Shown here: positions 549-7,889 of the stretch, in pieces
Position numbering within the stretch: the first letter of the stretch is position 1
How the letters are laid out: every line of letters starts with the position of its first letter
DNA from: a virus
Taxonomy: Duplodnaviria; Heunggongvirae; Uroviricota; Caudoviricetes
DNA: 7,889 bases
Strand: one strand, 5' to 3'
Virus record (IMG/VR): IMGVR_UViG_3300010283_000069
Program-made: the position numbers and the translations under genes
The notes under the pieces: model-generated
The model's database searches: none
Seen by the model: only the letters and a program-made list of their open reading frames with translations
What the model was told of the DNA's origin: nothing

Positions 549-750
549 CTGCTGCCGCCTTAGGTTTTCGACCAGGCTTTTTACGCTGTTTTTCTTCTGG
601 CTCTGCAACATCCTTCAAAAGGTCATCAGGATGTGAAAACCAACCAGCATCCAGATATTCCTGAAGCTCTTCGGCTTTCACGATTTCAAAGTCGTAGCCA
701 ACGCCTTTCCACTTCTTCATGTCGCCATGACGAAAGATCATGTGTGTCAT
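526..750 (-). CDS. small hypothetical protein (74 aa) with a Lys/Arg-rich C-terminus, in the position of P22 orf69 between coat and gp4
   Basis: ATG at 748-750 is preceded by GGAGACAAGC (good Shine-Dalgarno spacing). Product is [16 protein letters not shown]...[21 protein letters not shown]. Stop TGA at 526-528 overlaps the gp4-like start by 23 nt. The track's start at 798 would overlap the coat stop and the terminator, so it is rejected. Confidence 0.55.
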
Positions 751-762
751 GCTTGTCTCCAG

Positions 763-786
763 ATAAAAACGGGAGCCGAAGCTCCC
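763..786 (-). terminator. Rho-independent terminator immediately downstream of the coat gene
   Basis: Minus-strand transcript reads GGGAGC-UUCG-GCUCCC then G-UUUUUAU: a 6-bp GC-rich stem with a UUCG tetraloop and a U-tract, starting 8 nt after the coat TGA-TAA tandem stops. Plus-strand stem arms are 771-776 and 781-786. Confidence 0.6.
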
Positions 787-794
787 TCTGGTTA

Positions 795-2090
795 TCACGC
801 GGTCTGGTTAGGCAGACCAATACCAATTGCCTCTGGCCGTACAGCACATGCTGAATACCACACAGCAATACGGCACTTACCAGACAGAGTATTGATATCA
901 CCCTGCGTTGCGAAGATGCCGTTAACACCAATACCAGGAATGCTGAAGGAAGACGTTTTCATGCCAGCAAACAGTTCATGGGTTACCGGAATCGGCTGAG
1001 ACAGCAGGCGGATTGAGTCATCAGCCCAGAACACGTTAGCGGTGGTTGTTGCCACGTTCAGAACGTTTACCGGAGTGGAATCAGCAAGAGAGGTGTTTAC
1101 GTTAGCGTAAGCCTTCTCTTCTTTTGTCAGTGAAGAGTCATCAAGCGCAATCGGCTTCGGCGTGATTTCGATGTGAGTATCATCGATCACACGGGTGATT
1201 GAGAAAGTCGCATCATCAGTCAGCACGTTCTTCGCCATCTGAGACAGGAATTTCACACCAGTGAAGCTGATTTTGTCGCCGCGCTTAAATCCGGTGGTGG
1301 AGGATACGATCACCGTTGCAACACGGTTGTCGACGTTCTCTTTGTTACCATCGGTATCAAGGGTGTATGCCTGCGGCTTAAACTTCTGCGCACCAGAAAC
1401 AGTTACACCAGTAGCGGTTGACTTGGTAACAGCCGGAAGTTTCGGTGAGCGAAGAATTTCATCAAAGCCAGCAATCTGACGCTGAATGGTACCGTTGCGA
1501 TACGCTTCTTCAGGAACGCGCCCGAAGATGTCACCATCTACCAGGTTGCGGCCTGCTTTGCGGTAATCGTCAGGGTTCAGGAAGTAACTGATGCCCATAT
1601 CGCGGTTTAGCTCGCGGGAGAACATCAGGCGCTCTGCATCAGACACAAAATCCCAGCCAGACAGGCCAGTAGATGGACCAATTGCGCGGGTATCGTGAAC
1701 AACAAGCGAGCCCATTTCAGTTGCCTGTTTGGCAATCGCTGACTCAATGTTATTCGCCAGTTTTTTGGCGGATGCCTGGATGCGGCGACGGTAAGAACGC
1801 TCATCACGCAGGTCATCTGCACGAAGCTCGAAGAAATCGTTATCCGGATCGCCCATGTTGCACTTCACGGAGAGTTCCAGAATCCCGGTTGCGTTGCCAG
1901 TTAAATCCCAGCCAGTCTGGGTTGGCGCTTCCTGCTCAACAGGCATCCACACGGTGTTGCTTGAACGCTGCATGGATTCTGCCGGAGGGGTGTATTTTGT
2001 CACTTTGGACGCCATTGGCGTCAGGTTCTGGACGGTTTCGATGATTTCATCCAGAGCATACGTGACCAGTTGACCTTCATTTAATGCCAT
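795..2090 (-). CDS. major capsid (coat) protein, P22 gp5 family (431 aa)
   Basis: Length and sequence ([23 protein letters not shown]...[16 protein letters not shown]...) fit the P22 coat protein as I recall it. The ATG overlaps the scaffold stop (TAATG). Lies between scaffold and the terminator, as in P22. Confidence 0.93.
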
Positions 2091-3001
2091 TATCGAATTC
2101 CTTTATTCAGTTGCGCCTTAAGCTTGCGGTATGCCTCTACATCCCCTTTGTTTGCTGCCGCTTCCATCTGCTTTTCAATCGCAGATATATTTGCAGCAAC
2201 AGCGTGTCCCTGAATGGGTTCATCAGGTAACGGGGCTTCTGAAACAGGCTTAGCTCGAGGCTTGAGAGTTAAACGTTCTGACAGTCGAGTGATTTCAATC
2301 AGCGCGGATTGCCCGTCCATCGCCAGCAACTGGCGTGTTTTCTCAGGATTAGCACCAAGGTGATACATGAGAGCGGCAGATTTCTCCGGGAAGAGGCGCA
2401 TGATGTCGGCACCGACTGCTGGCGGCACCAGTTGCATGAATGCATCCTCTTTCTCCTGATAGTCAGGGATATTGAGCTTTTCCGCTGCGTCGTAGTGCTT
2501 ACGGGCTGCCTCGACGTATTGCGCTGATTGCTGGGTGAACTCCTGAGTTTTGCGACCCTGCTCGGCGACAGCCTGGCTTCGTGCGTCCATAGCCTTGATC
2601 TGCCATTCACTGTTTGCCTGCTGGAAGGCGGCCAGTGCGCGGCTCTGGTCATAGTCGTACTTAGCCAGTGCATCTTCGGAAAGATAATCGTTAGGGTCTG
2701 GTTGTTTTGGTAACTCAGGGTTCACCCGCAGGTGCTCCGGCAATTCTCCACGCTTAACCGCTTCCATCTGCTGCTCAAGCTCACGCTGGCGTTTGCGTTC
2801 GATGCGGCGACGGGCAAATTCAGCATTAGTTGCCGGGTCTTGTTTTGGTTTCTCATCGTCTTTCAGGACAATCTCGAAGCCTTCTTCCTGACCTGCGCTG
2901 TCGTTGGCATTATCGACAACTAAGCCATCAGCAGATGCCGCTGCATGATTGCCGGGCAGGGTTAATTCTTCAGAAGCCTGAATGTCGGTGGTTTGGTCCA
3001 T
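2090..3001 (-). CDS. scaffolding protein, P22 gp8 family (303 aa)
   Basis: Exactly 303 aa, charged and helical, with a basic C-terminal segment (...[13 protein letters not shown]) as expected for the coat-binding helix-turn-helix. ATG at 2999-3001 has a GAGAG Shine-Dalgarno. Sits between portal and coat. Confidence 0.9.
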
Positions 3002-3014
3002 GATTAACTCTCTC

Positions 3015-5180
3015 TTATTGAGGTGTCTCGGCTACTCCGCCGGAGGGGATTTGAACTTGACGCATAAGATTCGCGAAATCCATGCGTTGTGAATGAGTCT
3101 GGTCTGCATCTTTAAGAAGCAGCTCAGCGTTAGCACGAGCATCTTTGCTGCGCTGTTGCTGGAATTGACCTACGAGCTTGAGGTACTCACGCAGTTCTGC
3201 CTGCTTGTCGAGGTCCATATTGTTGAAGATTTCTGCAATCTTCGCGGCGTTGAGTTGGTTTTGAGCTTCAACCTTGGCAGCTTCAACCTGAATCTGCGCC
3301 TGTTGGTTCTCTGCCTTGAGCAATTCAGCCTGACCTTGCAGAAGGATACCCTGCGCCTGAATTTGCTCTGCTGATGGCTGCTGCGGCTGCTGTTGCGCCT
3401 GTTGTACCATCTCCATCTCTTCAGGTGTTTCTGGTTTCTTCAGCCCCATCATCACCAGTTGCTTGTTCGCGTACTCTCGCATCATCTCGACGCCTTTACC
3501 GTCAAGCAGCGTGAAGTATTGCAACATCAGCATCTGGAACTCTGGAGTACCTTGCGGAACCTTGGTGAGTAACTCCTGAATCTCTGCGCGGTTCTGTTCC
3601 TTCATACTCTGGAAGGATGGTCCAACGTCGGTATAGCACTCATAGCGACCGCGAATGTCGTTGAGTGTGACCACATTACCGGACTGGTAATCTACAACTT
3701 GCGCGTAGAGTTGAACGTCTTTCTCGCTACCATCTTCAAGTGTCAGCGTTACATGACGAGGAACGTCATAAATATCATTGACCATTGAGGCATAAATCTC
3801 GCCATCACGTCGCATTGCGGTAGCAAGGTTATCCTGAAACACGTATGTCTCAAGGTCTGCCCGCATGTTCAGTTGATTGACGGTATCGAAAGCGACCTGA
3901 GAATTTGCTGCCTGCGCATCCACACCAAGACTAGCCACCTCTTTCACTGCGTTGGTGGCAGCCTCAAGCATGTAAGCGTTGGCTTGCGGCACTTCAGGGT
4001 TTTCCATGTAGGAGATTGGACCAATCGGCAGGTCGTTACCGTTTTCATCGGTCCTGTTCTGCAGATAGTACGGATAGTCATCATTTCCACCGTACATGTA
4101 TTCGTAGCCTTCGATTTGCTCAGGGAAGAAGGTCGGTTTCTTCTTCGGTGAACGAGCAACAATATCGGCGTTGAACGACATGATCATGTTACGAAGGCGT
4201 TGACCGTCTTTCGTCAGCCTTACCACGCCCTCGTAGCACTCCTTGTCACCAGCGAATGACCATTCGCCGTACACAGGAACGATTGGGATATGCTCTCCGG
4301 CTATCTTCTCGCGGTCTTTCAGTATCTGCGTGCAGGTGATGATCGACTTATACACACGCCGACGCTTGACCTTACGCTCTGCTACCTTAATGAATCCACG
4401 ATTAGCCAGGTCGTCGATGACGTCTTTGATATCCTGCTGGTAATAGCTGACCGGCTCACCTGTCAGCGGGTCGCGGTAGATGAAGACTTTCTCTTTCTTC
4501 TCTTCGACCTCGTAATACTCAGCGACGTAGACGACATCATTCGATACCCACGGAAACAGCCATGTATCGTTCGGATTCTGAAAAGATGGCAAGGTATCAG
4601 GATCAATATCGTAATCCTCTGCGAACTCTTTCCAGCCATTGCGTGACAAAGCGTTAATCACCGTGCAGTGCTTAGCGTCGCTCTTATCCATCTGCTTGCT
4701 GTTGGCGTCCCATATGACGTGCGAGCAGGCTTCATGGATTGGCAGGCGTCGGATTACCTGATTGTTGCTTGTTGGGTCGTTGTCTTCGTACTGGGTGACC
4801 AGACGCCATGCACCAACGCCGGACTCTATCTGCTCACGAACGCCAACGTTAACGGCAATCTTTGCCGTGTTATGGCGCATATCAGTACGATACATTCCCA
4901 TCAACACATCGGCAGCATCAGGATTAGCGCCGTCTTTGGGTCGGAAGAGAACGTCGATAGGGTTCCGGCGCATCTCTGCTACCAGTTTCCTGACCACCGG
5001 GCGAACAACATCGAATTGTCCGCGATATTGCAGGGTAGTGTAGTTTGATAGCCAGTCATCCCATTGCGACACTCGGCTAAAATACAGGTCATTTGTCGCC
5101 TCGGTTCTGGCTTCATCGCTCGCCATCCAGTCCGCGTCAAACTTACACAGAATGGAATTGAGTCTGTTTTCGTCGGCCAT
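3015..5180 (-). CDS. portal protein, P22 gp1 family (721 aa)
   Basis: 721 aa against about 725 for P22 portal. Gln/Ala/Glu-rich helical C-terminal ~120 aa typical of the P22 portal barrel. ATG at 5178-5180 directly follows the terL TAA (TAAATG), with GGAG 7 nt upstream. Confidence 0.93.
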
Positions 5181-6680
5181 TTAAGTTCTCCGTGCGATGG
5201 GCCTGATTGGGGCTGGTATCTTTTTCTCTTTTGGTTTTTTGATGTCGCGCATCATTTTGGCGAAGCGGCGCATCATGTATGCATAGCGAACGGCTGAGAG
5301 AACGTCGTCGTTAAGCTTGACGATTTTCCCGTTTTCATCACGGTGATAGAGGCGGAACTCCTCAAAGAATGGCTCACAGGTGTTGAATACTTTGAAGCGA
5401 CCATCGAGCATCATGTCGCGCAATTCAGTGATGCCAGGCTCCACAGCGTTACCGCCATCAGGCCATGTCGCATGCTCCTGCAACATCATAAATCCAGCGT
5501 CTGCATACTGCCCTTTGAGCTGCTCACCGCCGCCCTTCTCATGCTGGTTTCCGTCATGAGGCCATGCGGTTGGCACTTTATGCGCCCATGATTTAACAGC
5601 TCCCCACGCCTGAACGGCTGTCTTTTCTTTCGCCTTCCACACGCGTGAAACGTAGATTGTGTCTGCGTCCTTATCCCACCAAAGCTGAACCTGCGCCTGC
5701 GGGTGATCCCATCCGAAATCCATCCCGCCAATTACGTAGAAGTGATCCGGACACTCGAACGGCTGACACTTAATCGTCTCTTCCGGTATCTGGAAGATTC
5801 GACCGCTACCCATCGTAGGAATACCGCGAGCACGCGCCTCTCTCTCATGCTCTGGATAGGATGCGATGATTTGCTCTTTCTGCTCGTCGGTATAGTGCTC
5901 AGCGTCATAGATGGTCATGTTGACCACTTTCTGCGACTTGCTGGGGTTCTTCAGGAACTTGGTAACAACGTCAGACATCCCCATCAGCGGGGTAAACGTC
6001 AGAATTGAGAATTGCCCGTATTTGTTGGTACGGGTAAGACCTTCGCCATAAATGCTGTATGGTGGCTCTTCGTCAAACCACACGCCGTGGATTGTGTCAC
6101 CCTGCCAGCGAGCACGGCCTTGCGAGTATGGTTTGAAGTAGCAGATTGAAATGCCATCTTCAACGCCATCAGCCGTGTGATGCTTAACCAGAAGATGATC
6201 AACAAGGTTCGGAAAGAAAGGAGACTTCTTCCAGCTAATGATGTCTTCTTTCGGTATGGAACCGTAGCCAGGTTCATCATTCTCTTCGATACGACCGCAC
6301 AGGATGCGTTGAGTCGTTTTGGTTACAGTCTCGTTTGTCTCGCCACCAATCCAGAAGACAACAGGCTCATAGAAACGCTTACCTTTCCACTCCCCGCCAT
6401 ATTTACCATCAGCAGGATAGCCTTTTGTGCCCGGATAACGCCCGGTAAGGTGAAACGCGACTTCAGCAGCACCAGTAAATGACTTACCAAGCTGGTTACC
6501 AGCCATAAAACAGCGCTCTGGATAGTCATGCCCGGCGTCGATGAACTCACGCTGTTTGCTGTATGGCGTAAATTCATATAGCAGGTGTGTGTTCCGGTAG
6601 TTCTCTTCTTCTTCGAGTAGCTCGAGCAATTCTATTTGCTCTTCGTCGCTCAGGTTATCAAGAATCGCGTCCAGTTCCAC
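5181..6680 (-). CDS. terL: terminase large subunit, P22 gp2 family (499 aa), GTG start
   Basis: 499 aa as for P22 gp2. Walker A-like AGNQLGKS near residue 60, Walker B-like VWFDEE, and a C-terminal nuclease-like GMDFGWD motif. Start codon is GTG at 6678-6680 with AAGGAG 10 nt upstream; there is no in-frame ATG before the upstream stop. Confidence 0.93.
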
Positions 6681-7146
6681 GGTTGAATAGCTCCTTGATA
6701 CGAGAGCGTCGCTTATCGCGATCTCCCTTATCAGGTGTCACGTCTTCAACTTGCGACTGCTCTTTGAGGCCCAAATCACGGGCGATGATGTTAGCGTTGA
6801 GAAGGTCAGCGGCTGCGCCAGAGAATTTCTGGTCGTAGATGATGTCTTCCGCTCGTGATGTGACGTCAGAAAAACCTTCCATTGACCGGAAGGTTCCCCA
6901 TGTTTGCCTGGTGATATCAAGGAAGGTACACAATCCTGAAATAGTCATGGCTCGCATCTTAGGGACATTAGCCTTAATTATTTCTCCCTGATATGAAAAT
7001 ACCTTACCCTCCCATAGCGGGTTATCATCAGCCCACTCGAAGTATTCACAACAAGCTGCCCACAGCGCCTCAGGCGATTCGAATTTAGGATTTCGCCCAT
7101 GACTACTGCGGGCCTCCCAAAATCGGTTGCCCTTTGGTGCTGCCAT
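6658..7146 (-). CDS. terS: terminase small subunit, P22 gp3 family (162 aa)
   Basis: 162 aa as for P22 gp3, with N-terminus [29 protein letters not shown]. Lies directly upstream of terL and overlaps it by 23 nt. ATG at 7144-7146. Confidence 0.9.
6857..6879 (-). other. candidate pac (packaging initiation) site inside terS
   Basis: Minus-strand GAAGGTTTTTCTGACGTCACATC covers terS codons 90-97 (EGFSDVTS). From memory, the P22 pac site is about 22 bp at this codon position (approximately GAAGATTTATCTGAAGTCGTTA, encoding EDLSEVV). This sequence matches that in register at about 15 of 22 positions and contains the palindrome TGACGTCA. Confidence 0.35.
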
Positions 7147-7151
7147 ATTGA

Positions 7152-7223
7152 TTATTTCCCTTCTGTTTGCTTATCCCATTCATCGCGGAATTTGGATGGG
7201 TTGTCGAAACCTTGAGTTGCCAT
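7152..7223 (-). CDS. possible mini-ORF (23 aa, [23 protein letters not shown]) between the 80-aa gene and terS
   Basis: ATG at 7221-7223 lies 2 nt after the TAA of the 80-aa gene and has GGAG 7 nt upstream. Its TAA stop at 7152-7154 is 5 nt before the terS ATG. Not in the ORF track because it is below the length cutoff. Confidence 0.3.
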
Positions 7224-7225
7224 GT

Positions 7226-7468
7226 TTATGCTCCGGTAGTGAACAGGTCTAACGCTTCCTTCGATTTACGCACCGCTTCAAATGTGCGGATCGTGATATC
7301 TGAATTAGCGCCACCTGACTGGAAGTGAATTTTGAATAGCTCAAGCTTCAGCTCGTCAGTGCCAATGAACTGAAATGCTTCTTCTGCGGCTGCGTTCTGG
7401 TTCATGACCAGTTTGTAAATCTCTAACTGGAATTTCTGTTCTTCAGTCATGGGAATAATCTCTGCCAT
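7226..7468 (-). CDS. hypothetical protein (80 aa), in the position of the small conserved ORF upstream of terS in P22-like phages (orf80-like)
   Basis: ATG at 7466-7468 is preceded by GGAGCCAACA (good Shine-Dalgarno). Acidic, helical-looking product MAEIIPMTEEQKFQLEIYKLVMNQNAAAEEAFQFIG... The 80-aa length matches my recollection of P22 orf80. Function unknown. Confidence 0.65.
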   Translation of the reverse strand: MAEIIPMTEEQKFQLEIYKLVMNQNAAAEEAFQFIGTDELKLELFKIHFQSGGANSDITIRTFEAVRKSKEALDLFTTGA

Positions 7469-7493
7469 TGTTGGCTCCGTTTATCCGTTAAAA

Positions 7494-7515
7494 GGGATAT
7501 CAGTTAAGTTATCCC
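7494..7515 (-). terminator. hairpin followed by a short U-tract upstream of the 80-aa gene; possible weak terminator or RNA structural element
   Basis: Minus-strand GGGAUA-(10-nt loop)-UAUCCC followed by UUUUAA, about 25 nt upstream of the 80-aa gene ATG. Only 4 U and a large loop, so weak. Confidence 0.25.
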
Positions 7516-7709
7516 GTGTAGGGTATAAGCCATTGTCGAGACCACTCATTGAATGGCCTCTGCAATAACCGATGTCTTTCCATCAGTCCGCCACCACAAA
7601 GAATCTTTTTTGCCATAAGGCTGGAGGTTCATCTTTCAGTGGCTGCCAGTGTTATTTCCCCACTTTCTGGCTTGGGTTGTTTCGCTGTACTGCCGCAACT
7701 GGTGGTGCA

Positions 7710-7727
7710 CAGATTTAGTTAAATCTG
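7710..7727. repeat. perfect 8-bp inverted repeat with 2-bp spacer (CAGATTTA-GT-TAAATCTG); possible protein-binding site
   Basis: Read directly from the sequence. The arms extend imperfectly to 11 bp (9 of 11 matching). AT-rich and lying in a region without ORFs. Not followed by a U-tract on either strand, so not a terminator. Confidence 0.4.
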
Positions 7728-7889
7728 TTCTCGCCTGAACTATCTTTTACATACCCGGATTGTGGGGATGTAAATCACGGTTTCATTATCAAGCCCACCC
7801 GTAGATGGGCTTTGTAATGGATAGCTGTTGCTCAGTTCTCGTAATGCTTTGATTTTTCCGATAACGCAGTTTTGCGTTTGCCATCAGCA

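What the first reader, a model, noticed from the sequence alone, without database searches (positions are those of the whole stretch)
7469..7889. About 320-420 bp upstream of the 80-aa gene without a convincing ORF
Every other gene in the window is packed with junctions of 0-25 nt, yet here no ORF of 60 aa or more exists on either strand. The only minus-strand ORFs are 22-35 aa with poor or absent ribosome-binding sites. The region holds a hairpin with U-tract (7494-7515), a perfect 8-2-8 inverted repeat (7710-7727) and a GC-stem hairpin (7791-7812). In P22 I recall this lysis-to-packaging junction being occupied by orf201 and rha-type genes, so this may be a deletion scar, a replaced or decayed gene, or an unannotated small RNA or regulatory region.
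Basis: partly seen in the sequence, partly recalled or inferred. Interest (0 to 1): 0.5.

Follow-up and report, generated by a model that had tools for sequence, protein, structure and literature searches.

The report
Hairpin-rich non-coding spacer before packaging genes

Summary
Window 7469-7883 (415 nt, late-gene sense = minus strand) has no credible gene. Only the last codon and stop of an upstream KilA-N gene (7884-7889) lie in the window.

The stretch is 90-99% identical in more than 200 sequenced lambdoid phages and matches 47% of complete E. coli genomes. Nearly all records leave it unannotated.

It is not a decayed gene. Six-frame pieces hit no phage protein family. The 35-aa and 22-aa minus-strand ORFs lose their start, frame or C-terminus among relatives.

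It is a patchwork of modules whose minus-strand RNA folds into about nine hairpins (z = -6.4). Two are copies of a conserved two-tier hairpin (7819-7784, 7567-7531). Its upper stem keeps pairing through G-C, A-U and G·U exchanges only in the late-gene-sense RNA.

Other phages carry cargo genes at two slots inside the stretch: Sf6 gene 66, DUF551 and small ORFs at about 7571-7547, and the P22 pid moron at about 7493-7480. Here both slots are empty. A 2026 RNA-seq paper reports a P22 RNA fragment (P22G) 97% identical to 7695-7553.

Most likely these are RNA hairpins that mark and protect cassette ends within the late transcript. The function is inferred, not shown. Interest is modest.

The parts
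7884..7889 (-). Last codon (TGC) and stop (TGA) of an upstream KilA-N domain gene that runs off the window
   Evidence: Window 7771-7889 is 98% identical to EC.P3 L002 2814-2932, where the CDS ends at 2927. That protein ends ...LDIAC and has a KilA-N domain (PF04383, 2.8e-24).
7863..7878 (-). Small hairpin H0 (AACGCA-AAAC-TGCGTT) just after the KilA-N stop
   Evidence: Read directly from the sequence. Not analysed further.
7784..7819 (-). Two-tier hairpin, copy 1 ('type A'): lower helix CAUUA/UAAUG, 2x2 internal loop, upper helix AAGCCCAUC/GGUGGGCUU, UACG loop
   Evidence: The same element follows at least five unrelated upstream genes in other phages. Stem variants keep pairing in the sense RNA.
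7746..7774 (-). Hairpin H2 (UUUACAU.CCC...GGG.AUGUAAA), part of a 67-nt indel module (7704-7770)
   Evidence: The module is absent from EC.P3 and Dewey, where about 9-14 nt replace it.
7709..7728 (.). Perfect 9-2-9 palindrome ACAGATTTA-AC-TAAATCTGT (hairpin H3, or a possible protein-binding site), in the same indel module
7571..7693 (-). Conserved leader module 'M3'. It holds a predicted GCCAG/CUGGC hairpin, a hairpin enclosing the AUG at 7616, and the first 15 codons of the 35-aa ORF. It is homologous to the core of the reported P22 RNA fragment P22G
   Evidence: Recurrent mosaic breakpoints at 7693-7705 and at 7571-7566. P22G nt 60-204 are 97% identical to window 7695-7553 (PMC13397905).
7509..7616 (-). 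35-aa ORF (MAKKILCGGGLMERHRLLQRPFNEWSRQWLIPYTG), judged non-coding
   Evidence: No Shine-Dalgarno sequence. Among 71 homologues, 5 have AAG instead of ATG, several have frameshifts in the A-run, and the C-terminus changes at the 7571 junction, giving lengths of 10-65 aa. In phage L it is fused in frame to the DUF2560 gene as 'orf118'.
7547..7571 (.). Cargo slot 1, empty here. Other phages insert forward-oriented genes at this point
   Evidence: Inserts of 116-657 nt carry Sf6 gene 66 (PF13876), a DUF551 protein, and 56-57-aa or 80-aa ORFs. Each is followed by a two-tier hairpin.
7531..7567 (-). Two-tier hairpin, copy 2 ('type C'): lower helix UAUUG/CAAUG, internal loop, upper helix GAGGCCAUUC/GAGUGGUCUC with one G·U pair, AAU loop
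   Evidence: P22 has GAGGCCA/TGGCCTC, many phages have GAGACCA/TGGTCTC, and the window has the G·U intermediate.
7481..7549 (-). 22-aa ORF (MSGLDNGLYPTRDNLTDIPFNG), the homologue of P22 'orf25', judged non-coding
   Evidence: The start codon sits in the loop of hairpin copy 2 and there is no Shine-Dalgarno sequence. P22 orf25 shares only the first 9 residues and then diverges in the diverged P22 tail sequence upstream of the pid insert.
7480..7530 (-). 51-nt 'tail', nearly invariant in lambdoid phages; it folds as one extended imperfect hairpin
   Evidence: When copies are collected by the preceding hairpin alone, about 120 of 129 have a full-length tail with only scattered point differences, most of them in loops. 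With the 3' half of the hairpin it forms the 68-nt block 7480-7547, the most widely shared piece, present in Stx phages, Ayreon and mEp460. The inverted repeat 7481-7499/7510-7528 is 74% complementary.
7490..7515 (-). Hairpin H8 (GGGAUA-10 nt-UAUCCC) followed by UUUU: the top of the tail hairpin and a weak terminator-like site
   Evidence: The terminator discriminant is negative (d = -30), against +18.5 and +0.5 for two annotated terminators.
7480..7493 (.). Cargo slot 2, empty here. In P22 the divergently transcribed pid moron replaces about this segment
   Evidence: P22 L010 615-869 matches window 7228-7482 and 1501-1688 matches window 7510-7695, with 631 nt in between that carry pid, its promoter and its terminator (PMC3573128, PMC8835761).
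7226..7479 (-). Shine-Dalgarno sequence (GGAG, 7475-7478) and the 80-aa DUF2560 gene (7226-7468), the first gene after the spacer
   Evidence: PF10834, 2.6e-42. Annotated as orf80/hkbM/gene 67 in P22, HK620 and Sf6.

Best explanation
Window 7469-7883 is a non-coding spacer inside the long late transcript. It lies between the variable accessory-gene region that follows the lysis genes and the first gene of the packaging and head cluster.

It is assembled from short modules shared by recombination among lambdoid phages. The order on the late-gene strand is: [upstream gene stop] - two-tier hairpin - variable hairpins - conserved leader M3 - (cargo slot 1) - second two-tier hairpin - 51-nt tail hairpin - (cargo slot 2) - ribosome-binding site of the 80-aa gene. 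In this phage both cargo slots are empty.

Shown: the anatomy, the wide distribution, the absence of a conserved ORF, the alternative cargo genes at the two slots, and pairing of the two-tier hairpin upper stem that is kept specifically in the late-sense RNA.

Inferred: the hairpins act on RNA as cassette-end elements. They would give weak, Q-overridable termination and/or protect 3' ends and guide processing. This would stabilise upstream accessory-gene messages, as shown for the pid terminator. It would also limit read-through into the packaging genes when the late antiterminator is absent.

Also inferred: the near-identical hairpin-plus-tail sequences serve as homology patches through which cargo genes are swapped. 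Stable fragments such as P22G would be by-products of this hairpin-protected RNA.
For: 1. There is no coding signal. No ORF reaches 60 aa and no PHROG family is hit at E <= 0.01. The 35-aa ORF loses its ATG or frame in about 10 of 71 homologues, and its C-terminus changes at a recombination junction. The 22-aa ORF starts in a hairpin loop.

2. The sequence is widespread. 201-211 phage records match at 90-99% identity, across P22-like, HK97-like and Stx phages. 2556 of 5426 complete E. coli genomes match. The features under the match are 'none' or short hypothetical ORFs.

3. It is modular. Breakpoints recur at 7784/7771, 7713-7693, 7571-7557, 7547 and 7480. The minimal form in phage 2851, Ayreon and mEp460 is just hairpin plus tail.

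4. Cargo genes sit at slot 1 in Sf6, Emek and many IMG/VR contigs. The pid moron sits at slot 2 in P22. PMC3573128 states that related phages have no insert or another insert at that site.

5. The RNA is structured: z = -6.4 on the minus strand against -3.7 on the plus strand, and the gap is the most structured of 15 sampled windows.

6. The two-tier hairpin was examined in 43 unique versions from about 270 copies, falling into four stem families.
- Upper-stem positions show up to six different pair types. Only 2 cells are unpaired in the sense RNA, against 56 that would be mismatched in the antisense RNA.
- Twelve distinct stem transitions give G·U in the sense RNA and none favours the antisense. 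Background transitions in the gap run 9 against 11. Fisher p = 0.0016.
- The lower-helix pair A-U changes to G-C together with the GAUAAUG/GACAAUG polymorphism.

7. P22G, an RNA-seq fragment seen during P22 infection, is 97% identical to 7695-7553 (PMC13397905).

8. As precedent, the pid 3' hairpin is needed for pid mRNA stability (PMC8835761).
Against: - None of the window's hairpins scores as a canonical intrinsic terminator in the late sense. The simple scan found 0. The discriminant values are -14, -61 and -30, against +18.5 and +0.5 for two annotated terminators. The type C hairpin has no U-tract at all.
- The lower helix of the two-tier hairpin is not consistently kept. The CATCA variant in about 30 copies breaks a pair, and 3 events favour the antisense there.
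- Low diversity in the gap (pi about 0.02, against 0.096 at third codon positions of the 80-aa gene) is not clean proof of constraint. The first 15 codons of that gene are equally invariant at third positions, and gap divergence is uncorrelated with gene divergence. A recently shared recombination block explains this equally well.
- The four stem 'families' may be replacements by recombination rather than stepwise compensatory evolution.
- The element occurs almost only in Escherichia, Shigella and Salmonella phages, so deep covariation cannot be tested.
- P22 grows normally with the 3' end of the tail (about 7493-7480) replaced by pid and the rest of the tail strongly diverged, so the intact tail is not essential.
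- There is no transcript-end or processing data for this locus.
Confidence: 0.55

Rival explanations
1. The stretch encodes a discrete small regulatory RNA, the homologue of P22G (roughly 7695-7553, minus strand). It would act in cis on the downstream gene or in trans on host or phage targets.
For: P22G was reported from small-RNA sequencing of P22-infected Salmonella and is 97% identical to 7695-7553 (PMC13397905). The module is highly conserved and predicted to be hairpin-rich.
Against: No sigma-70-like promoter lies on either strand of 7100-7889. P22G starts inside the ORF201 coding sequence, and its listed 3' end falls inside the 5' arm of a hairpin, as expected of a decay or processing fragment of the late mRNA. 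Read counts are modest (374 and 488 in the paper's table). No Rfam family matches. Variation is too low for any covariation support in this module.
Confidence: 0.15
2. The stretch is functionless debris. It would be scars of repeated insertion and deletion of accessory genes, with hairpins as leftover terminators, and its conservation would reflect only recent spread by recombination.
For: Mosaic breakpoints and indels run throughout. Diversity is as low at synonymous sites of the adjacent 15 codons as in the gap, and is uncoupled from the rest of the 80-aa gene. The host range is narrow. P22 tolerates disruption of the tail.
Against: Upper-stem substitutions in the two-tier hairpin are strongly biased to those that keep sense-RNA pairing: 12 to 0, against a 9 to 11 background, p = 0.0016. 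Hairpin plus tail persists next to more than 20 different upstream genes and at least four downstream contexts. Folding is far beyond the shuffled expectation.
Confidence: 0.2
3. One or both small minus-strand ORFs (35 aa at 7616-7509; 22 aa at 7549-7481, the homologue of P22 orf25) are real micro-protein or leader-peptide genes.
For: Both ORFs are open in many relatives and have been annotated in some records (P22 orf25; Louie and Dewey small CDSs; N-terminus of ST64T/L orf118). The first 15 codons of the 35-aa ORF are conserved.
Against: Neither has a Shine-Dalgarno sequence (CCUCC, not GGAGG, precedes the 35-aa ORF). ATG is AAG in 5 of 71 copies, frameshifts occur in the A-run, and the C-terminus differs by recombination type (lengths 10-65 aa). 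The conserved N-terminal part is explained by DNA identity alone. The 22-aa ORF starts in a hairpin loop and shares only 9 residues with P22 orf25. There are no PHROG hits.
Confidence: 0.06
4. The elements act on DNA rather than RNA. The perfect 9-2-9 palindrome (7709-7728) and the extended palindromes would be operator or recombination sites for phage proteins, for example the neighbouring KilA-N or Rha-type DNA-binding proteins, or linkers for module exchange.
For: The 20-bp palindrome is perfect and several others are near-perfect. DNA-binding genes lie next door. 'Boundary sequences' are annotated at other Sf6 junctions. The hairpin-plus-tail patches do coincide with recombination breakpoints.
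Against: The palindrome module 7704-7770 comes and goes independently of the upstream gene: EC.P3 has the same KilA-N gene but lacks the module. G·U-type variation in the two-tier hairpin fits RNA, not duplex DNA symmetry. There is no protein-binding evidence.
Confidence: 0.12

Closest known systems
The orf25-orf80 intergenic region of phage P22 that holds the pid moron (Cenens et al. 2013, PMC3573128; Wolput et al. 2022, PMC8835761)
   Same: It is the same genomic junction and is directly homologous. P22 shares window 7510-7695 and 7228-7482 at 94-95% identity. The authors already noted that related phages have no insert (PS34) or another insert at this site.
   Different: The window lacks pid, its promoter and its terminator, so it is an 'empty' form. 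P22 lacks the first two-tier hairpin and the H2/H3 module, because orf201 abuts M3 directly. The conserved hairpins and the tail were not described in those papers.
P22G, a putative small non-coding RNA from P22 infection RNA-seq (Naaz et al. 2026, PMC13397905)
   Same: P22G nt 60-204 are 97% identical to window 7695-7553 on the late-gene strand.
   Different: P22G begins inside the orf201 coding sequence, which the window does not have at that place. Its ends are defined by read coverage only, and no function or independent promoter is known.
Morons and their flanking terminators in lambdoid phages (concept of Juhala/Hendrix 2000, from my own knowledge; used in PMC3573128 and PMC2629481)
   Same: It is a variable site in a late operon where unrelated small genes, each followed by a hairpin, are present or absent among otherwise collinear phages.
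   Different: Here no gene is present. Most cargo at slot 1 shows no recognisable promoter of its own. The hairpins that recur are weak or non-terminators by sequence criteria.
Boundary sequences ('bsq') at mosaic junctions of HK620 and Sf6 (annotation seen in NC_005344; Clark 2001 and Casjens 2004 from my own knowledge)
   Same: These are short, near-identical non-coding sequences located exactly at points where neighbouring modules differ between phages.
   Different: No bsq feature overlaps this junction in the part of the Sf6 record examined. The present element is longer (about 90-100 nt) and shows RNA-type structural conservation.
Intercistronic stem-loops that stabilise or process polycistronic mRNA (T7 RNase III sites, REP elements; from my own knowledge)
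   Same: These are hairpins with an internal loop placed between genes of a long operon, working in the sense RNA.
   Different: No cleavage or stabilisation data exist here. The lower helix is only 5 bp, shorter than classical RNase III substrates, and there is no sequence similarity.
Rfam RF03044 Proteo-phage-1 RNA
   Same: It gave a weak sequence match at 7641-7704 on the minus strand, sharing AAGCC.G..AGUG and AACAC.GGCAGCC.
   Different: The score is 18.7 bits against a gathering score of 42 (E = 1), and the model's helices are not formed. Genuine members score 74-81 bits and sit upstream of holin genes in other phages.

Membership tests
Protein-coding gene or pseudogene (decayed gene) | Homology of a translated frame to an intact protein family elsewhere | tested here: not met
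   Ten stop-to-stop translations of 29-66 aa were run against PHROGs. Nothing scored E <= 0.01 (best 0.05-0.06). The DNA homologues are unannotated or carry only short ad hoc ORFs.
Protein-coding gene or pseudogene (decayed gene) | Start codon, frame and length of the ORF conserved among homologues | tested here: not met
   For the 35-aa ORF, 5 of 71 copies have AAG for ATG, A-run frameshifts occur, and there are at least 8 different C-termini. The 22-aa ORF shares 9 residues with P22 orf25 and then diverges.
Moron (independently expressed inserted gene) | An extra gene present relative to collinear relatives | tested here: not met
   The window has no gene at either slot. Relatives have Sf6 gene 66, a DUF551 protein or small ORFs at slot 1, and pid at slot 2. 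The window is the empty site, not a moron.
Moron (independently expressed inserted gene) | Own promoter and factor-independent terminator | tested here: not met
   The scan found 0 promoter-like and 0 terminator-like sites in 7100-7889. The terminator discriminants are negative.
Intrinsic (Rho-independent) terminator | G+C-rich stem-loop | tested here: met
   The upper stems of the two-tier hairpins fold at -12 to -15 kcal/mol.
Intrinsic (Rho-independent) terminator | U-rich tract directly after the stem | tested here: not met
   The sequences after the three stems are UUGAUAAUG, GACAAUGG and UUUUAACGG. The T-scores are 2.1, 0.1 and 3.1, and the discriminant is below 0 for all three in the late sense. 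Control terminators scored +18.5 and +0.5.
Independent small RNA gene | Own transcription start and defined 3' end | tested here: inconclusive
   No promoter consensus was found. The only transcript evidence is the homologous P22G read-coverage block, which starts inside a coding sequence and ends inside a hairpin arm. No end-mapping data are available.
Structured RNA element (cis-acting) | Base pairing maintained through compensatory or wobble changes, specific to one strand | tested here: met
   This holds for the upper stem of the two-tier hairpin only. Only 2 cells are unpaired in the sense RNA against 56 in the antisense, there are 12 to 0 sense-preserving transitions, and p = 0.0016. It is not met for the lower helix. 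It is untestable for M3 and the tail because variation is too low.
Rfam RF03044 Proteo-phage-1 | Score at or above the gathering threshold, with the model's helices formed | tested here: not met
   The match scores 18.7 bits against 42 and the helix positions are flagged as non-pairs. Nothing reaches the gathering threshold in the window or in 10 related loci.
Rfam RF03044 Proteo-phage-1 | Genomic position: upstream of the holin gene, after a Q-like gene | tested here: not met
   Genuine members lie 130-600 nt upstream of holin genes. The window element lies after the lysis cassette and before the packaging genes.
Homologue of the P22 orf25-orf80 junction (pid insertion site) | Collinear nucleotide homology on both sides of the pid insert | tested here: met
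   Window 7228-7482 matches P22 at 94.9% and window 7510-7695 at 93.6%, flanking a 631-nt P22-specific insert that encodes the 86-aa Pid.

The most novel reading that the evidence does not exclude
The two-tier hairpin plus 51-nt tail (about 90-100 nt; window 7819-7784, and 7567-7480 as the complete copy) may be an undescribed, very common cis-acting RNA element of enterobacterial lambdoid phages. It would mark the 3' end of accessory-gene cassettes. It would shield the packaging and head genes from non-antiterminated transcription, or direct processing of the late mRNA. It would also serve as the homology patch through which anti-defence and other cargo genes are exchanged between phages with unrelated head modules.
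Probability: 0.2. Interest if true: 0.55.

Novelty: new member of a known kind. Interest (0 to 1): 0.3.

Why it matters
This junction is a hotspot where P22-like, HK97-like and Stx phages carry small accessory genes. Examples are Pid, Sf6 gene 66, a DUF551 protein, and next door Tad2-like, KilA-N and Rha genes.

A shared RNA hairpin that delimits these cassettes would help annotate such hotspots in the roughly half of E. coli genomes that carry the sequence. It might also explain how cargo is kept stable, kept insulated and swapped between phages.

For this window alone the practical message is simple: the gap is genuine non-coding sequence. It is not a missed gene or a sequencing error, and annotators should not call the 22-aa or 35-aa ORFs.

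Tried and rejected
- Rfam. Nothing reached the gathering threshold in the window or in ten related loci. The only lead was Proteo-phage-1 at 18.7 bits. I followed it by fetching genuine members and rejected it: they sit in a different genomic position, before the holin gene, and the model's helices are not formed in the window.
- tRNA and tmRNA: none.
- Promoter and terminator consensus scans: none found. A d'Aubenton-Carafa-type score also rejected the window hairpins as canonical terminators.
- Decayed-gene hypothesis: PHROG scan of six-frame pieces was negative.
- An open frame at the window edge ('...ADGKRKTALSEKSKHYEN*') first looked like the 3' end of the upstream gene. Comparison with EC.P3 showed that the real gene ends at 7884 in another frame, and I corrected this in the notebook.
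- Purifying selection from diversity. The gap is about five times less diverse than third codon positions of the 80-aa gene. I do not rely on this, because the neighbouring 15 codons are equally invariant and the histories are decoupled.
- Species-level genome scan for divergent copies. It gave only 8 hits, all Escherichia or probably mis-binned metagenome bins, so no deep covariation is possible.
- E. coli K-12 cryptic prophages DLP12 and Qin do not contain the element, so K-12 transcript maps cannot help.
- Literature search by sequence strings found only the P22G paper.
- Integron attC-like and transposon target-duplication readings of the GAYAATG repeats were considered. I dropped them because the repeat is simply the 3' half of the lower helix of two homologous hairpins.
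Full report
**Setting**

The window is the late region of a P22-like phage read on the minus strand. The genes are:
- coat, 795-2090
- scaffold, 2090-3001
- portal, 3015-5180
- large terminase, 5181-6680
- small terminase, 6658-7146
- an 80-aa DUF2560 gene, 7226-7468 (PF10834, 2.6e-42), equivalent to P22 orf80, HK620 hkbM and Sf6 gene 67

The finding concerns what lies upstream of that gene, 7469-7889.

**Check of the observation**

No ORF of 60 aa or more overlaps the stretch. The longest are plus-strand ORFs of 57 and 48 aa. On the late-gene strand there are ORFs of 35 aa (7616-7509) and 22 aa (7549-7481).

The '8-2-8' repeat is really a 9-2-9 palindrome (7709-7728). The GC hairpin is the top of a longer two-tier hairpin (7784-7819).

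One frame that is open at the window edge misled me at first. Comparison with phage EC.P3 (98% identical over 7771-7889) shows that the upstream KilA-N gene ends with Cys-stop at 7889-7884. The non-coding gap is therefore 7469-7883, 415 nt.

There are 79 nt between the 80-aa gene and the small terminase gene, and about 183 nt after the coat gene.

The region is more structured than chance. The late-sense RNA of 7835-7460 folds at -122.7 kcal/mol, against -91.8 +/- 4.8 for dinucleotide shuffles (z = -6.4). The opposite strand gives z = -3.7. In my own run the gap gave z = -4.7 and was the most structured of 15 sampled 360-nt windows; the fourteen coding windows ranged from +0.6 to -3.5.

**Relatives**

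The stretch matches 201-211 phage records at 90-99% identity. They include HK620, Sf6, P22, epsilon34, phage L, HK97-like HK106, mEp234/235 and Stx phages. It also matches 2556 of 5426 complete E. coli genomes. A scan of one genome per bacterial species found it only in Escherichia, plus a few probably mis-binned metagenome bins.

In nearly all records the matching DNA is unannotated or carries only short 'hypothetical' ORFs.

That test is negative:
- Six-frame pieces hit no PHROG family at E <= 0.01; the two best scores are E = 0.05-0.06.
- The only long annotated ORF over the region, phage L/ST64T 'orf118', is 38 leader codons fused in frame to an 80-aa DUF2560 homologue. It is most likely an over-extended start.

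**The small ORFs**

I examined the 35-aa ORF in 71 homologous copies:
- Five copies have AAG in place of ATG.
- Several have a 7-A run or a 1-nt deletion that shifts the frame.
- After codon 15 the peptide changes with the recombination type, giving lengths of 10-65 aa.
- CCUCC, not a Shine-Dalgarno sequence, precedes the start.

The 22-aa ORF is the homologue of P22 'orf25'. It starts in a hairpin loop, and the two share only nine residues before the sequences diverge. I judge both ORFs non-coding.

**Anatomy**

BLAST of the gap against about 140 related loci shows recurrent breakpoints at 7784/7771, 7713-7693, 7571-7557, 7547 and 7480.

The simplest form is in Stx phage 2851, Ayreon and mEp460. 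It reads [stop codon] - CCATTACAA - stem-loop - GATAATGG - CTTATACCCTACACGGGATAACTTAACTGATATCCCTTTTAACGGATAAA - [next gene or other sequence].

The window has this arrangement, but with 253 extra nucleotides (7783-7531) that end in a second, homologous hairpin. On the late-gene strand the order is:
- hairpin H0 (7878-7863)
- two-tier hairpin copy 1 (7819-7784)
- H2 (7774-7746) and the palindrome H3 (7728-7709); most of this segment (7704-7770) is a 67-nt indel absent from EC.P3 and Dewey
- leader module M3 (7693-7571)
- two-tier hairpin copy 2 (7567-7531)
- the 51-nt tail (7530-7480), itself an extended imperfect hairpin whose top is GGGAUA...UAUCCC followed by UUUU
- GGAG and the start codon of the 80-aa gene

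**A cargo hotspot, empty here**

Between M3 and the second hairpin (about 7571-7547) other phages carry forward-oriented genes:
- Sf6 gene 66 (PF13876)
- a DUF551 protein
- ORFs of 56-57 aa and of 80 aa, or two of these together

Each is followed by a two-tier hairpin, sometimes preceded by a canonical terminator.

In P22 a 631-nt insert with the divergently transcribed pid gene, its promoter and its terminator replaces about 7493-7480. This is the moron locus described by Cenens et al. (PMC3573128) and Wolput et al. (PMC8835761). Those authors already noted that related phages have no insert (PS34) or another insert there.

Upstream of the first hairpin, different phages have KilA-N, Rha, hkbL, GIY-YIG nuclease or Tad2-like genes. 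The hairpin plus tail is thus the constant piece between a variable accessory region and the packaging and head module, whatever the type of that module.

They flank it.

**Evidence that the hairpins matter as RNA**

I collected 43 unique versions (about 270 copies) of the two-tier hairpin. They fall into four stem families that share the lower helix CAUUA/UAAUG (UAUUG/CAAUG in the window's second copy) and a 2x2 internal loop, but have different upper stems.

- In the ten upper-stem pairs, only 2 cells are unpaired in the late-sense RNA. In the antisense RNA 56 would be A·C mismatches.
- Single positions show up to six pair types.
- Within families, 12 distinct stem transitions create G·U in the sense RNA and none favours the antisense. 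Two are mismatches in both, and two convert G·U to A-U.
- Transitions elsewhere in the gap show no such bias, 9 against 11. Fisher p = 0.0016.
- The window's second copy is the G·U intermediate between P22 (GAGGCCA/TGGCCTC) and the common GAGACCA/TGGTCTC form.

The lower helix is less well kept. The CATCA variant breaks a pair, and three events favour the antisense there. I report this as a weakness.

M3 and the tail vary too little for any test.

The gap's low diversity (pi about 0.02, against 0.096 at third codon positions of the 80-aa gene) is not decisive. The first 15 codons of that gene are equally invariant, and gap divergence is uncorrelated with gene divergence. A recently shared recombination block fits this as well as constraint does.

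**What the hairpins probably do**

They are not canonical terminators in the late sense:
- The consensus scan found none.
- A d'Aubenton-Carafa-type discriminant, in my implementation with ViennaRNA energies, gave -14, -61 and -30 for the three candidates. It gave +18.5 and +0.5 for an annotated Ayreon terminator and the pid terminator.
- There is no promoter consensus on either strand.

The late genes form one long antiterminated operon (PMC7067206 for the P22-like prophage BTP1), so this RNA is made as part of that transcript.

The best-supported reading is that these are cis-acting RNA hairpins at cassette ends. They would act as weak, antiterminator-overridable stops and/or barriers to 3' exonucleases and processing signals. 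This parallels the pid 3' hairpin, which is required for pid mRNA stability (PMC8835761). The identical hairpin-plus-tail patches also coincide with recombination breakpoints, so they plausibly serve as homology for cargo exchange.

This functional step is inference. No transcript-end data exist for the locus.

**The small-RNA reading**

Naaz et al. 2026 (PMC13397905) list ten P22 regions with abundant small-RNA reads. One of them, P22G (204 nt), is 97% identical over its nt 60-204 to window 7695-7553 on the late strand. That is the only transcript evidence.

P22G begins inside the orf201 coding sequence and ends inside the 5' arm of the second two-tier hairpin. Its read counts are modest. It looks more like a hairpin-protected fragment of late mRNA than a separate gene. 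I keep the sRNA reading as a rival at about 0.15.

**Comparison with known families**

Rfam gave nothing at gathering score. A weak Proteo-phage-1 match (18.7 bits against 42) was followed up. Genuine members score 74-81 bits. They lie upstream of holin genes and downstream of a protein with a weak Q-like antiterminator match. That is a different place in the phage genome, and the model's helices are not formed in the window. I rejected membership.

The closest known thing is simply the homologous P22 orf25-orf80 junction. The closest concepts are morons with flanking hairpins, the 'boundary sequences' annotated in Sf6, and intercistronic stabiliser or processing hairpins.

**Verdict**

The gap is real, non-coding and not an error or a pseudogene. 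It is the cargo-free form of a known accessory-gene hotspot, built from conserved RNA hairpins.

The locus and its mosaic nature are already in the literature for P22. What appears to be undescribed is the recurrent two-tier hairpin plus tail with sense-RNA-specific pairing conservation. That is a modestly interesting lead rather than a surprise.

Interest is 0.3. The most novel reading not excluded is a new, very common cassette-end RNA element that insulates the packaging genes and mediates cargo exchange. I give it about 0.2 probability.

Noticed in passing
L146, L215, L217, L218, L209, L224, L175, L223 and about 110 further IMG/VR loci (L145-L264): Genuine Rfam Proteo-phage-1 RNAs (74-81 bits) lie 130-600 nt upstream of holin genes (PF05106, phrog_2359). 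They lie about 160 nt downstream of a roughly 200-aa protein (phrog_3373), one copy of which weakly matches Q-like antiterminators (phrog_304, 4.5e-7). This 'sRNA' family therefore looks like a late-operon leader RNA.
   Followed up: partly
window 7147-7225: There is a 79-nt gap between the 80-aa gene and the small terminase gene. HK620 and Sf6 carry an extra roughly 60-aa gene (hkbN / gene 68) at this place.
   Followed up: no
window 612-794 (and 600-959): There is a gap of about 183 nt after the coat gene stop. The minus-strand RNA of 600-959 folds with z = -3.5, the second most structured of the sampled windows.
   Followed up: no
L004 639-1109 (phage Louie): The gene next to the gap is annotated 'anti-CRISPR protein' but has a Thoeris anti-defence Tad2-like domain (PF11195, 9e-27). 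This suggests the accessory region beside this junction carries anti-defence cargo.
   Followed up: partly
L008 801-1157 (phage L cII-101; the same in ST64T): The annotated 'orf118' is 38 non-conserved leader codons fused in frame to an 80-aa DUF2560 homologue that has its own Met (MAEITAL...). The annotated start is probably too far upstream.
   Followed up: partly
L136, L137, L138, L141, L142: The E. coli phage junction element occurs on contigs of metagenome bins labelled Cellvibrionaceae, Nanosynbacter, Bacillota and Collinsella. These are most likely mis-binned enterobacterial phage contigs.
   Followed up: no
L010 1480-1540 (P22): P22 keeps a diverged version of the tail hairpin (GGATA-loop-TATCC, with a different loop) upstream of the pid insert, followed by a run of ten G. 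The P22G paper places the RNA's 3' end 16 nt from the orf25 start. By the sequence listed in that paper, the orf25 ATG begins 4 nt after it.
   Followed up: no
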